NCBI GenBank assembly: GCA_951406725.2
Contig: OX597819.1
Location: 39,618,001 to 39,682,000 of the forward strand
Reading direction: 5' to 3'
Source of the DNA: Octopus vulgaris
Lineage: Eukaryota
DNA: 64,000 nucleotides
A program made the translations under genes and the position numbers. Below, piece by piece: positions 21,795 through 41,894 of the stretch (position 1 is its first letter; each line of letters begins with the position of its first letter). A model generated the notes under the pieces. That model was given only the letters and a program-made list of their open reading frames with translations. It was not told the DNA's origin and made no database searches.

Positions 21795-21848
<54 letters not shown>

Positions 21849-21930
21849 GGTCCCGGGTTGAGTCGGGGTTAACCACAGTAAATAAGGTACTCAATACATA
21901 GCAGAGTAAATTAATTTATTATATAGAAGG

Positions 21931-21981
21931 AGCTTCTACAGGACTAGAACTGTTTCATTCAAAAGAAATCATCAGGAAGCT
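21931..21981 (-). ncRNA. Type I hammerhead ribozyme (family A)
   Basis: Exact reverse complement of 22400-22450. Confidence 0.75.
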
Positions 21982-22399
21982 AGTAGACAAGAGTTGTTTT
22001 GGCATTTATACATTTAGGCAGGTTTAAATGGGTGGTGGTGGGGGACTTTTTTGGGGGTAGGCATGGCGCAAAACTATCATTATTAGGGGAGTGGTCAAAG
22101 GAATCGGTGGTAAAGTAGATAAAAGAATAAATAAAAGAATAAAAGAATAAATAGAAAAATGGAGTTTTAGGTAAGTAAGGAGTCTCTCACTTGTACATCT
22201 ACATATATATATATATAAATTGATCAAAACAAAAACACGATGCCAAGGATCCAGCGGCACACATGTTTCGGGTCCCCATATAATGACCACTCCCCTAATA
22301 ATGATAGTTTTGCGCCATGCCTACCCCCAAAAAAGTCCCTCACCACCACCCATTTAAACCTGCCTAAATGTATAAATGCCAAAACAACTCTTGTCTACT

Positions 22400-22450
22400 A
22401 GCTTCCTGATGATTTCTTTTGAATGAAACAGTTCTAGTCCTGTAGAAGCT
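22400..22450 (+). ncRNA. Type I hammerhead ribozyme (family A), canonical core
   Basis: AGCTTC-CTGATGA-TTTC-tttt-GAAT-GAA-ACAG-ttctagtc-CTGT-A-GAAGCT: stem I 6 bp, stem III 4 bp, GUA cleavage triplet (after 22444), weak stem II with a U-U closing pair. Confidence 0.75.
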
Positions 22451-22460
22451 CCTTCTATAT

Positions 22461-22513
<53 letters not shown>

Positions 22514-22676
22514 TACATATACATATACATATATACACATACATACACATACATATATACATATATGTACATATATATAAATACATATATATACGGACAT
22601 ATATATATATACATATGTACATATACATACATATGCACAGATATATGTATATATATATATATATGTGTATATATAT

Positions 22677-22707
<31 letters not shown>

Positions 22708-22708
<1 letters not shown>

Positions 22709-23358
22709 CTAAGTAATTAAGGGTTTAGCAACGATTTGCCTCACCAAACACCGAATTTAGAAATAGCAGTCAAAGGGTTATAGCTATTCTTTCTACTAAA
22801 AGGGAGATCTCAGTAAAACCACAGCACTTGAAAGACAAACACAGACAGGCAAGAGAGAAAGAAATGACGGCAATCTATCATACAATTTTAAGTCACCTAC
22901 GGACGTACGTTTCGAAATTAAGTTTTAGGAAAGCATAAGAATTAGATAATTATGTCTTACCCAACTTCTTTTCTCATCAGCGTAGGACACTACAATTATG
23001 AATAATTGTATATTAAATTTCGAGGTACTAGAAGACATCATCTCAACTCAGTATCAGAGCGAGCTAAAGCCGTTACCAGTATCACCAAATTCAAAGTGTG
23101 AATGAAAGTTTGTGTCACCAACCCCCTCCCACCAGCGTGCAGCCAAGACAAGATGTTGTGGTCATTTACTGGGATGAAATATGGTTATCAGTAATAATAT
23201 AGGGTGAAATTAATTAATTTGGAATAATCATTACTTTCACCAAGTAGATTTCGGCATGTAAAAGCCTCATTCGAGGAAAGTTTAAGTAATACTAAGTAAT
23301 TAAGGGTCAAAGGGTTATAGCTATTCTTTCTACTAAAATTAATTTCACCCTATATTAT

Positions 23359-23362
<4 letters not shown>
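22708..23362 (-). mobile_element. HHR family B element: ~583-nt unit with terminal redundancy and inverted tip
   Basis: ACTAAGTAATTAAGGGT at 22708 and 23291; GTCAAAGGGTTATAGCTATTCTTTCTACTAAAA at ~22769 and ~23306; 23190-23215 inverted at 23337-23362; (TA)n flanks. Confidence 0.8.
22896..22986 (-). ncRNA. Type I hammerhead ribozyme (family B), canonical core, long stem II
   Basis: Minus strand: CCTACG-CTGATGA-GAAA...(long hairpin)...TTTC-GAA-ACGTACGT-C-CGTAGG. Stem I is 6 bp, stem III is palindromic, and the triplet is GUC. Confidence 0.8.
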
Positions 23363-34554: not shown

Positions 34555-35752
34555 ATAACTTAGAATAACTTAGAAAGGTTTTGGCCAGTATTGGCCCAGG
34601 CCATGTCTAACTTAATAGCACCACCTGGCGAAGTCTTTCAATTCAGGATTTGGGTACCAAGGCCCATTCGAGCAGAGAGTTATTGTTTGCGGAGACATAT
34701 CCGGGTGTGGGTGGTTTGTCCGGGACTGTTTGAAGGAATTTGTCCAAAGACTTCTTGAATTTTGTGTGGTCAGTTTCTTTTTTGACGTGTCCTGGTGTAA
34801 TGTTGAAGAGAGCGGGTCCAATTGAGGTGAAATAGTTGTGCCGTATTGTCGTTATGTGGTGCGATTTAGATTTTTGTTGTGGACAGATGGCACGTGGTCC
34901 AAGCCTTGGATGTATTTTGAAGGTGATGCCAACATCATTCGGACAGTGCTGATGGAATATTTTCCACATCATACAGATAATGTAGCGTTCACGGCGTCGT
35001 TGGAGTGAATACAGTTTCAGCTTCTCTAGTCTACCCCAGTAGTCAAGGTCTGACATGCCATCTAACTTTTTTGTGATTGACCTTTGGGGAGCTTCAATTC
35101 TCATAATATTTTGTTTTGTGTAGGGAGACCACAGTGGACAGCAGTATTCAAGGTGGGGTCGGGCAAAAGTGGAGAAGAGAAGGATAATAGTGTGGGAATC
35201 TCTCGACTGGAAGGTTCTGAGAATCCAGGAACACATTCTGCGGGCCATGTCAACTTTGCTGCTTATATGTGTAGCCCAGCTTATGTTGTTGTCCACTGTT
35301 ACTCCCAAGTTTCTGATGTTGTTGGATGCCATGAGAATTTCTCCAGAAGGAAGGGAGTATGGGAGTTTCAGAGCGTTCTCCCTTCCAAAGTGGATCAGTT
35401 CGAATTTGTCTTCGTTTAGCAACATGTTATTCTTTTCCGCCCATTGGACAACAGCCAGTAGGTCTGACTGAAGGCTTATTCGGTCATCCACGCCGTTGAT
35501 GACCTTCTGGAGCTTGGAATCATCAGCAAAGGTTCTGATGTTACTGTGTTTGATGGTGTCAGTAATATCATTTATGTAGATGATGAAGAGAAGTGGGCCC
35601 AACACAGTGCCTTGTGGGACACCACTGCTGACTTTGGCTGGGCTGGATTTGACTCCTTCGACTACAACATGTTGGGTTCTGTTAGACAGGAAGCACTTGA
35701 TCCACTGCAGCAGCTTTCCAGTGACACCAATATTGGACAGCTTTCTCAGAAG
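34555..35752 (-). mobile_element. 5'-truncated CR1/Jockey-group LINE; reverse transcriptase C-terminal ORF (34643-35605) open
   Basis: SGVPQGTVLGPLLFIIYINDI...FADD RT motifs, LEYCCPLWSP and LYSLQRRRER. A short 3' UTR ends in (TTCTAAGTTA)2 next to (TA)n. Confidence 0.92.
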
Positions 35753-36589
35753 TACTGGTCCGAATTTTGACTAAAGAAAACAAGTGATCAAATGTTATAT
35801 TTAATTGGAATTTAATCGTCAATGTACTTTCTCTGATTATCTATGACTTCCTTCCATCTATTTACAAGCTTTTTAATCCCATCAATGTAAAACTCTTTTG
35901 GTTTCAAAACGAAGGACTCTGAAATCTCAGTTTCGATCTCCTCCTGGCTTGCGAAAGTTATGTCCCCCAAATGATTCAGTAAACTACGAAACAAATGGTA
36001 GTCTGAAGGAGCAAGGTCGGGAGAATAAAGTGGATGAAGAATTTTTTTCGCAACCAAGCTTCGATCTTCTGTGATGTGATATTTGCAGTGTGGGGTCGCG
36101 CATTGTCCTGATGAAACATAACTCCTTTTCGATTCACTAAAGTGGGTCTTTTTTTCTTCAAAGCTTGGTTCAAACGCTCAAATTGCTGACAGTAGACTTG
36201 AGCATTGATTGCTGCATTAGGTGGTAACAATTCAAAGTGAATTACTCCTTCACAATCCGACCAAAAAGAGAGAAATCTTTTCTATGAAGCTCCCTTCTCG
36301 GTTGTGGTTGAGCCTTTTCCCTTTTACCAAGCCACTGTTTACGACGTTTAACATTTCGATAGAAGATCCATTTTTCTTGATCAGTCAAAAGTTTATAGAA
36401 AAAGGGTGAAATGAGTTCGCGAGAAGGAGAGAAGAGCAGATGTCAACTCGGGATTTGCGGTTGCTTTCAGACAATTCCTGAGGCACCCATTTTCCACGTT
36501 TAGGAACCTTTCCAAGTTGTTGAAGATGACGATGAACAGTTGCATGGTTTGAGCTAAGCTTTATTGCCAATTCTTCATCTTATGACCTG

Positions 36590-40471: not shown

Positions 40472-40521
<50 letters not shown>

Positions 40522-40532
40522 TATATAGAAGG

Positions 40533-40583
40533 AGCTTCTACAGGACTAGAACTGTTTCATTCAAGAGAAATCTTCAGGAAGCT
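40533..40583 (-). ncRNA. Type I hammerhead ribozyme (family A)
   Basis: Reverse complement of 41714-41764. Confidence 0.75.
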
Positions 40584-41148
40584 AGTTAACAAGAATTGTA
40601 TTGGCATTTATACATTTAGGCAGGTTTAAAGGGGTGGTGGTGGGGGACTTTTTGGGGGTAGGCATAGCGCAAAATATCATACTTGGGGGAGTGGTCAAGG
40701 AGTCAGTGGTAAATTAGATAAAAGAATAAATAAAAAAATAAAAAAATATATATAAAAAAGAATAGAGTTTTAGGTAAATAAGGAGATTCTCACTTATACC
40801 TATACACATATGTATACATATATACACACACATACATACATATATACATACACACATACATACACACACACACATATACATATATATACACATACACTTA
40901 CATATACATATCTACACATACACATATATATATACATACACTCACTCACATGCATACACGTATACACACATGTATATATACACACACGACCACACATACA
41001 TATACACACAGAAAAATATATATACATACACACACATACACATACACGCATACACACACATCTCCACATACACACATGCACACACAGCACACTAGTCCCT
41101 ATATACACATATATACACATACACACATATATATACATACACATACAT

Positions 41149-41188
<40 letters not shown>

Positions 41189-41713
41189 GTGTACCTATAC
41201 ATACCTACACATACACACATATATATACATACAAATACATACAAATATATACATACAAATACATACATTTCCAACCTTGTGTATATATACATGTGTGTAT
41301 ACGTGTATGCATGTGAGTGAGTGTATGTATATATATATGTGTATGTGTAGATATGTATATGTAAGTGTATGTGTATATATATGTATATGTGTGTGTGTGT
41401 ATGTATGTGTGTATGTATATATGTATGTATGTGTGTGTATATATGTATACATATGTGTATAGGTATAAGTGAGAATCTCCTTATTTACCTAAAACTCTAT
41501 TCTTTTTTATATATATATTTTTTTTTTTATTTATTCTTTTATCTAATTTACCACTGACTCCTTGACCACTCCCCCAAGTATGATATTTTGCGCTATGCCT
41601 ACCCCCAAAAAGTCCCCCGATATTTTGCGCTATGCCTACCCCCAAAAAGTCCCCCACCACCACCCCTTTAAACCTGCCTAAATGTATAAATGCCAATACA
41701 ATTCTTGTTAACT

Positions 41714-41764
41714 AGCTTCCTGAAGATTTCTCTTGAATGAAACAGTTCTAGTCCTGTAGAAGCT
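41714..41764 (+). ncRNA. Type I hammerhead ribozyme (family A)
   Basis: AGCTTC-CTGAAGA-TTTC-tctt-GAAT-GAA-ACAG-ttctagtc-CTGT-A-GAAGCT. It differs from the 22400 copy only at N7 and in loop II. Confidence 0.75.
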
Positions 41765-41847
41765 CCTTCTATATAATAAATTAATTTTACTCTGCTATGT
41801 ATTGAGTACCTTATTTACTGTGGTTAACCCCGAATCAACCCGGGACC

Positions 41848-41894
<47 letters not shown>

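What the first reader, a model, noticed from the sequence alone, without database searches (positions are those of the whole stretch)
21846..22465. Family A: canonical GUA hammerhead on both strands of an inverted pair
A complete HHR (6-bp stem I, CUGAUGA, 4-bp stem III with a CUAG-containing loop) is present twice in opposite orientation, so a transcript from either strand contains one. Between this locus and the 40-41 kb locus the ribozyme differs only at N7 and one loop II base, the positions free to vary, while flanks show several substitutions and indels. That suggests selection on the fold. Stem II is closed by U-U rather than the usual G-C.
Basis: partly seen in the sequence, partly recalled or inferred. 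Interest (0 to 1): 0.75.

Follow-up and report, generated by a model that had tools for sequence, protein, structure and literature searches.

The report
Hammerhead-tipped Penelope retroelement stub
The two mirror-image hammerhead motifs are the ends of one short insertion of a Penelope-type jumping gene with thousands of copies in this genome, a layout already described; the new hint is that most copies stop at the motif's first base, likely the start of the element's RNA, which would mean the RNA is usually copied uncut.

Summary
The two type I hammerheads are real, with 5,557 core matches genome-wide against 0 for the control. They are the pseudo-LTRs of a Hydra-clade Penelope-like retrotransposon: full copies carry an RT/GIY-YIG ORF behind the same sequence. 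The head-to-head pair, one arm with an extra 68-nt tail, in (TA)n, is the published PLE insertion pattern. U-U closure of stem II is common in this clade (14 of 25 families). Paired and core positions are invariant across subfamilies while loops vary (0/38 vs 5/13), but the downstream flank is about as conserved. New hint: 58 of 100 tail-anchored arms stop at +1..+33 of the ribozyme and 3 in the 30 nt upstream. A TATA box sits 29 nt before +1, and an extra G precedes +1 in 42 of 74 arms. The ribozyme is therefore likely the first 51 nt of the capped RNA, and that RNA is likely copied uncut. Cleavage is untested. This scan noted similar stubs in three other genomes.

The parts
21799..21845 (.). 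(TA)n microsatellite, left target flank
   Evidence: 92 of 100 tail ends of the family are followed by (TA)n
21846..22215 (-). Main arm: 5'-truncated element end (edge of low-complexity 3' region, pLTR, tail), sense on the minus strand
   Evidence: 40 scored copies at 95-100% identity
21846..21914 (-). Tail, +68..+136: present in this arm only; its two ends are the likely reverse-transcription start sites
   Evidence: 63 inverted arms end at +60..+72, 32 of them at +68; start-site reading inferred from PMC11167929
21931..21981 (-). Type I hammerhead, minus arm; predicted cut between 21937 and 21936; 21981 = +1, likely transcription start
22004..22010 (-). TATA-like box, first T 29 nt before +1
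22214..22283 (.). Spacer between the arms; 22214-22272 is about 90% identical to another repeat, likely captured by a template switch
   Evidence: L175:279-335 and 724-782
22284..22465 (+). Inverted arm: 5'-truncated pLTR without tail (about -116..+66)
22371..22377 (+). TATA-like box of the plus arm
   Evidence: sequence; 22-nt spacer to +1 in all 100 listed copies (read by eye)
22400..22450 (+). Type I hammerhead, plus arm; predicted cut after 22444; 22400 = +1, likely transcription start
22441..22459 (+). Predicted competing hairpin (+42..+60) that covers the cut site and displaces stem I
   Evidence: ViennaRNA prediction only
22456..22708 (.). (TA)n-rich microsatellite, right target flank
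40516..41850 (.). Second, independent insertion of another subfamily with the same layout: tail-less arm on -, tailed arm on +, hammerheads at 40533-40583 (-) and 41714-41764 (+)

Best explanation
The locus is a short, ORF-less insertion of a high-copy Penelope-like retrotransposon with Hydra-clade protein motifs, made of two 5'-truncated copies of its hammerhead-bearing pseudo-LTR joined head to head in a (TA)n tract, likely by two target-primed reverse-transcription events. Shown: in full copies (L136, L054) this sequence lies directly upstream of a 713-aa RT/GIY-YIG ORF (ATG at +184) and recurs after a long low-complexity 3' region. Shown: arms end 3' at +136 or about +68, and most stop 5' at or just inside +1, the first base of stem I. 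Inferred: +1 is the transcription start, so the ribozyme is the first 51 nt of the capped RNA. The element protein would nick (TA)n on both strands, start cDNA internally at +136 and +68, and often run off the capped end, which gives roughly 200-bp palindromes joined at the AGCT of +1..+4. This locus is the less common case in which both cDNAs ran past +1, on RNA that likely read through from upstream. Inferred: because these cDNAs cross the cut site (+45/+46), the templates were mostly uncut. The ribozyme is kept by selection on the source elements but is likely slow or switched off (weak stem II, no distal stem I, competing hairpin), acting on a minority of RNAs or as a protein-binding fold.
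For: Family link to the ORF. Hydra motifs RWR, DKT, CxCx5C linker, no CCHH, CxxC and CxH: against section 11 of PMC8557442. Architecture: 34 head-to-head pairs among the first 100 listed core matches, against 3 other pairings within 10 kb; 24 of the 34 have only 4-27 nt between the cores. Of 100 tail-anchored arms, 22 end at +1, 23 at +2..+10, 13 at +11..+33, 3 at -30..-1, 0 at +34..+48, 8 at +49 or later and 31 further upstream (one of the 31, L167, is a misalignment and ends at +1). 706 perfect palindromes are centred on +1..+4 genome-wide. TATA-to-+1 spacing is fixed while 14 of 22 spacer sites vary. G precedes +1 in 42 of 74 arms that abut (TA)n, where the usual native base is T (p=7e-9 against 25%); such G is ascribed to copying of the cap in L1/SVA (PMC3287187). 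A sister family (43% protein identity) behaves alike: 18 of 30 arms stop at +1..+18 and none between -81 and -1, and its stem I also begins at that +1. In vitro, anole PLE RT starts internally at both tail ends and uses uncut RNA (PMC11167929).
Against: No raw RNA reads were available, so neither the start site nor cleavage was observed. The extra G has a confound: ATATATG is also the first base of an arm begun at +136, and no matched control position was searched. The AGCT palindrome and the stem I homology could themselves cause stops and joins at +1. A minor class does end at the cut site: 25 of 30 examined among 66 pattern hits; 15 of these join through stem I homology and 10 do not, and L245 and L261/L262 have both arms ending at +46. 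The competing hairpin is predicted in this family but not in the sister family, whose TATA match is also weaker. D. virilis Penelope has a TATA-less internal promoter (PMC2377424). Pfam gave no RT or GIY-YIG hit for L136 itself, and no tree was built.
Confidence: 0.75

Rival explanations
1. Same element, but the stop at +1 is structural rather than an RNA end: after copying both strands of stem I the cDNA folds on itself or anneals through AGCT and leaves a longer template.
For: Junctions use hammerhead-derived microhomologies; 15 of 30 cut-site candidates join +1 to +46 through the 6-nt stem I match.
Against: It does not predict the fixed TATA spacing or the extra G. Ends form a one-sided wall, 58 inside against 3 just outside. 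The CTAG at +35..+38 and the AGCT at +48..+51 show no such pile-up in the 100-locus sample.
Confidence: 0.15
2. Head-to-head repeats arise by self-priming on an antisense template from a bidirectional pLTR promoter, as proposed for rotifer Penelopes.
For: Proposed in PMC3846280 from palindromes at inverted junctions (passages); 706 perfect palindromes exist here.
Against: The extra G and the TATA spacing both lie in sense orientation. The two arms have different fixed 3' ends (+136, about +68), and many junctions carry filler or foreign DNA, which fits two separately primed cDNAs.
Confidence: 0.07
3. The ribozyme is an efficient processing step: cut RNA is the normal template, or cutting defines unit-length RNA as in retrozymes.
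For: Fold conserved; a few insertions have arms ending exactly at +46; loop III can form a dimer (-12.8 to -15.2 kcal/mol).
Against: 0 of 100 main arms end at +34..+48; two inverted arms near the site were seen (L144, L182). The homology-free class at +46 (about 22 by extrapolation) is not clearly above controls at +47 (3 of 30 examined among 168, about 17) and +43 (6 of 10). No short tandem arrays appeared among the listed matches.
Confidence: 0.1
4. The inverted pair is a host-selected device that puts a ribozyme in transcripts of either strand.
For: Both strands do carry an intact motif and both arms keep the TATA box.
Against: Thousands of young copies share the layout. The locus is 95-99% identical to paralogues. 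A read-through RNA would form a 182-bp duplex.
Confidence: 0.03

Closest known systems
Hydra-clade Penelope-like elements, including Hydra-1_Obim (Craig et al. 2021, PMC8557442; section 11, passages, supplement part 2 and search hits seen)
   Same: C-terminal endonuclease, RWK-like and DKT motifs, CxCx5C linker, no CCHH, (TA)n target, type I hammerhead in the pLTR. U-U closure in 14 of 25 families and the same four stem III pairs in several (counted by eye). One Hydra family is listed with a hammerhead on both strands from an inverted copy.
   Different: Protein N-terminus and hammerhead differ from Hydra-1_Obim by eye, so a different family. The unit is 4,784 bp, not under 3 kb, because of a microsatellite-like 3' region. 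The tail is 68 nt, not 30-40. Loop III has 8 nt with a palindrome. In the parts read, no start site or truncation hot spot at the ribozyme is described.
PLE minimal hammerheads (Cervera and de la Pena 2014, PMC4209133; parts 1-2 of 4 read)
   Same: Hammerheads in pLTRs; pairs 100-700 bp apart on opposite strands; palindromic loop III; low activity in vitro.
   Different: Here stem III is a full 4 bp, stem II is short, and G10.1-C11.1 is replaced by U-U.
Anolis Poseidon PAc (Frangieh et al. 2024, PMC11167929; parts 1-2 of 4 read)
   Same: Two internal RT start sites bounding the tail, AT-rich target, hammerhead dispensable for insertion, uncut RNA the main substrate.
   Different: Other clade; its hammerhead overlaps the start codon, whereas here it lies 133 nt upstream of the ATG and at the likely 5' end.
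Adineta vaga Penelopes (Arkhipova et al. 2013, PMC3846280; passages)
   Same: Head-to-head inverted pLTRs with junction palindromes, a tail on one arm, TATA and Inr-like motifs in the pLTR.
   Different: Explained there by self-priming on an antisense template; the data here favour a capped sense template.
Metazoan non-LTR retrozymes (PMC7229834, passages; bioRxiv 10.64898/2026.07.22.740005, part 1 of 5)
   Same: Type I hammerhead in a high-copy animal repeat related to PLE pLTRs.
   Different: No short head-to-tail arrays; the family has its own ORF.

Membership tests
Type I hammerhead ribozyme | Core CUGANGA, GAAA and NUH in order with three helices, stem I open | tested here: met
   this fold is 0.3 kcal/mol above the MFE of the 51-mer
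Type I hammerhead ribozyme | Usual G10.1-C11.1 closing pair (recalled; also stated in PMC4209133) | tested here: not met
   U-U, invariant in 54 copies; common in Hydra-clade motifs
Type I hammerhead ribozyme | Distal stem I / loop II tertiary contact of canonical fast hammerheads | tested here: not met
   No extension of stem I is seen beyond 6 bp; +1 is the likely RNA end
Type I hammerhead ribozyme | Rfam hammerhead model score | tested here: not met
Type I hammerhead ribozyme | Self-cleavage at the predicted bond | not testable with these tools
   Only contigs were offered; genomic ends at +46 are a minor, ambiguous class
Penelope-like element (EN+) | Single ORF with RT and C-terminal GIY-YIG-type endonuclease | tested here: met
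   In family copies L135 and L136, not at this locus. Homologues carry RVT_1 or GIY-YIG hits; L136 itself has no such Pfam hit
Penelope-like element (EN+) | pLTR-ORF-pLTR partial tandem with a hammerhead in the pLTR | tested here: met
   L136
Penelope-like element (EN+) | Inverted 5'-truncated copy and one-sided tail | tested here: met
   the tail is 68 nt rather than the 30-40 nt in print
Hydra clade | RWK motif, DKT, CxCx5C linker, CCHH absent, CxxC and CxH around the conserved E and N | tested here: met
   RWR in this family, RWK in the sister; the rest read from alignment A1
Hydra clade | Insertion into (TA)n | tested here: met
   92 of 100
Hydra clade | Generally short (<3 kb); described as typical, not defining | tested here: not met
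   4,784-bp unit in L136
Hydra clade | Phylogenetic placement with named Hydra RTs | not tested
   No tree built; the named reference proteins were not held as stored sequences
Non-LTR retrozyme | Short head-to-tail tandem units, each with a hammerhead, no ORF | tested here: not met

The most novel reading that the evidence does not exclude
In Hydra-clade Penelope elements the hammerhead is the first 50 or so bases of the capped mRNA. The thousands of 200-bp head-to-head stubs are twin-primed cDNAs that ran off the cap of uncut sense RNA, so the genome itself maps the start site, settles sense versus antisense templating, and shows that the conserved ribozyme is held off during retrotransposition, as a self-decapping switch or as an RNA dimerisation and assembly module whose palindromic loop III pairs the two templates.
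Probability: 0.5. Interest if true: 0.62.

Novelty: new member of a known kind. Interest (0 to 1): 0.4.

Why it matters
The feature as flagged is ordinary PLE anatomy. Its value is as a large natural data set on two questions that the papers read leave open: what PLE hammerheads do (PMC8557442 calls it unclear), and whether head-to-head repeats come from sense or antisense templates (PMC3846280). A young family with about 4,900 exact tail matches, intact ORF copies, a predicted start site and a predicted off-switch hairpin gives direct 5'-end mapping and cleavage tests.

Tried and rejected
Rfam: no hammerhead match; the miRNA hits are (TA)n artefacts. Pfam on ORF pieces: only weak, off-target hits for this family. 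PDB sequence search: 0 matches. Sequencing runs: no RNA holder listed; only contigs could be laid, so no statement on expression, start or cut ends. An intron 3' splice site at +1/+2 was considered, because the D. virilis intron ends at helix I; rejected because junctions share no upstream exon, at most one or two G. The first cap-G tally was polluted by 11 stem I hybrids among 31 rows and by G donated by the other arm; it was replaced. In one search only 63 of 96 inverted-arm hits are real (3' end +60..+72); 31 with negative 3' ends are low-complexity or distant matches and were left out of counts, and they displaced the short arms of L144 and L182. One search included loci chosen by hammerhead sequence and was redone without them. 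The +47 control pattern mostly caught single-base mutants (27 of 30), so the cut-site comparison is weak. A general inhibitory hairpin was rejected: it is not predicted in the sister family. Target-site duplications cannot be read in (TA)n. A retrozyme reading was rejected (no tandem arrays, own ORF). An earlier count said 16 of 30 homology joins; the recount is 15. Literature searches for the start-site/cap reading in PLEs found nothing that states it; the library lacks most subscription papers and Repbase, and bioRxiv supplements were not seen.

Full report
Observation. The window holds four type I hammerhead motifs in two inverted pairs and no others by my descriptor. At the flagged locus the arms are 21916-22097 (minus) and 22284-22465 (plus), identical but for one base, between (TA)n tracts. 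Numbering from the first base of stem I as +1 (22400 on plus, 21981 on minus), the predicted cut is after +45. Rfam does not recognise the motif and the 51-mer is not unusually stable, but the core plus stem III occurs 5,557 times in the 2.8-Gb genome against 0 for the control.

What it belongs to. A DNA search gave 1,379 candidates, of which the 40 scored were 95-100% identical. Longer stretches of 20 of these loci showed RT and endonuclease frames between inverted arms. A search with that ORF led to copies in which the pLTR runs straight into it (L054) and to intact copies (L135, L136). L136 reads pLTR, ATG at +184, 713 codons, about 2.4 kb of microsatellite-like sequence, second pLTR, tail, (TA)n, with a unit of 4,784 bp. 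The protein has RWR, DKT, a CxCx5C linker, no CCHH, and CxxC and CxH motifs, the diagnostics of the Hydra clade in PMC8557442 section 11. It has 1,117 database relatives among 7,992 scored candidates, most of the listed ones near 40% identity and unnamed. It is not Hydra-1_Obim by eye. I did not build a tree, and I did not determine the species; earlier scan notes call the genome a cephalopod.

The inverted pair. PMC8557442, PMC3846280 and PMC2377424 describe an inverted 5'-truncated copy with a one-sided tail as typical, and PMC4209133 reports hammerhead pairs 100-700 bp apart on opposite strands. Here 34 head-to-head pairs occur among the first 100 listed matches. In 100 insertions chosen only by the tail end (4,905 genome-wide), main arms end 3' at +136 by construction, 92 are followed by (TA)n, and 63 have an inverted arm ending at +60..+72. 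The flagged locus is one such event, with a 68-nt spacer mostly taken from another repeat.

Selection on the fold. In 54 copies from tail- or ORF-anchored loci, variants shared by three or more copies occur at 0 of 38 stem, core and U-U sites, 5 of 13 free sites (N7, three loop II, one loop III), 47 of 102 upstream sites and 5 of 85 downstream sites. So the loop-versus-stem pattern supports the fold, but the whole 5' region to +136 is constrained and there are no compensatory pairs within the family. Across families the same core carries different stems (sister family; File S2 of PMC8557442), and U-U closure occurs in 14 of 25 Hydra families (counted by eye), so it is not an oddity.

Where copies stop. 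Main-arm 5' ends: 22 at +1, 23 at +2..+10, 13 at +11..+33, 0 at +34..+48, 8 at +49 or later, 3 at -30..-1, 31 further upstream (a looser alignment put 32 at +1). 57 inverted arms also end at +1..+33 and 4 at -30..-1. 706 loci are perfect palindromes on the AGCT of +1..+4, and the junction appears in independent contigs. A TATA-like box begins 29 nt upstream with a 22-nt spacer in all 100 listed of 2,573 matches, although 20-24 was allowed. Where an arm starting at +1 abuts (TA)n, the preceding base is G in 42 of 74, T in 13, C in 12 and A in 7; an untemplated G is ascribed to the cap in L1 and SVA (PMC3287187, passages). A confound remains, since ATATATG is also the first base of an arm begun at +136. 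In a sister family with 3,796 exact ribozyme matches, 18 of 30 arms stop at +1..+18 of an initiator-like A (consensus recalled) that is also the first base of its stem I, and none stops in the 81 nt upstream; that sample was chosen by the core, so later stops could not appear. I read +1 as the transcription start. This is inference.

What the ribozyme does. cDNAs that begin at +68 or +136 and reach +1 cross the cut site, so their templates were uncut. A pattern for arms beginning at +46 gave 66 hits; of 30 examined, 25 are truncations, 15 of them joined to an arm ending at +1 through stem I homology (ambiguous) and 10 not, including two loci with both arms ending at +46. Controls at +47 and +43 give about 17 and 6, so there is no clear peak, though rare cleavage is not excluded. 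Folding predicts that stem I pairing falls from 0.93 in the 51-mer to 0.23 at 60 nt and 0.11 at 68 nt, as a +42..+60 hairpin covers the cut site; the sister family lacks this switch. Loop III can dimerise, better in a common variant. This agrees with the anole element, whose ribozyme needs protein and is dispensable in vitro (PMC11167929). I favour a slow or gated ribozyme kept by selection on source elements, with no function at this stub.

Novelty and verdict. The element is a new family of a known clade and the two-strand layout is known. The start-site, cap-G and uncut-template reading was not found or 74 or in the paper parts read (listed under Closest known systems). I had noted it before seeing that three earlier scan notes on other genomes hint at the same; those notes are not independent support. 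Interest 0.4.

Noticed in passing
ORF copies, e.g. L044:1451-1470, L054, L138-L142: A C-run between the RT and endonuclease parts is one base short of the open frame in 15 of 23 copies across subfamilies. Independent contigs hold both forms; the in-frame form has about 10-27% of depth in three runs of unknown kind and 61% in one guessed-RNA run (depth unreliable). Slippage hot spot, trans-mobilised lineage or ribosomal frameshift.
   Followed up: partly
L123-L126, L132, L273-L302: Sister Hydra-type family with many intact 727-codon frames, its own hammerhead (A-A closure, extended stem I), a 72-nt tail and the same mini-palindromes.
   Followed up: partly
window 22214-22272; L175:279-335 and 724-782: The spacer matches another repeat that itself forms a head-to-head inverted pair in (TA)n, possibly another PLE end.
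   Followed up: partly
window 22706-22810 and 23190-23362: Another repeat with short inverted ends in (TA)n and hammerhead-like words that do not fit the standard order; related copies lie in several fetched loci. It may be the rewired hammerhead family of earlier notes; not tested.
   Followed up: no
L135, L138-L142 (position +34): A common loop III variant (21 of 54 copies) lengthens the palindrome to six bases and strengthens the predicted dimer.
   Followed up: partly
L136:3410-5750; L044:2130-4620: The 3' region is about 2.4 kb of TA/TG microsatellite-like sequence shared between copies, so some apparent host microsatellites are element cargo.
   Followed up: partly
window 41582-41655: Exact 37-bp tandem duplication inside the plus arm of the second locus.
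   Followed up: no
window 34643-35770 (-): 375-aa frame that looks like a LINE reverse transcriptase fragment (resemblance recalled, not tested).
   Followed up: no
proteins P0001-P0120: 1,117 relatives, most of the listed ones unnamed and near 40% identity, suggest the Hydra clade is far larger than the 27 families listed in File S1 of PMC8557442.
   Followed up: no
window 22463-22467 region and sister family +79..+84: In both families the tail-less arm ends directly after AATAAA, a possible polyadenylation signal or an AT-rich priming site.
   Followed up: no
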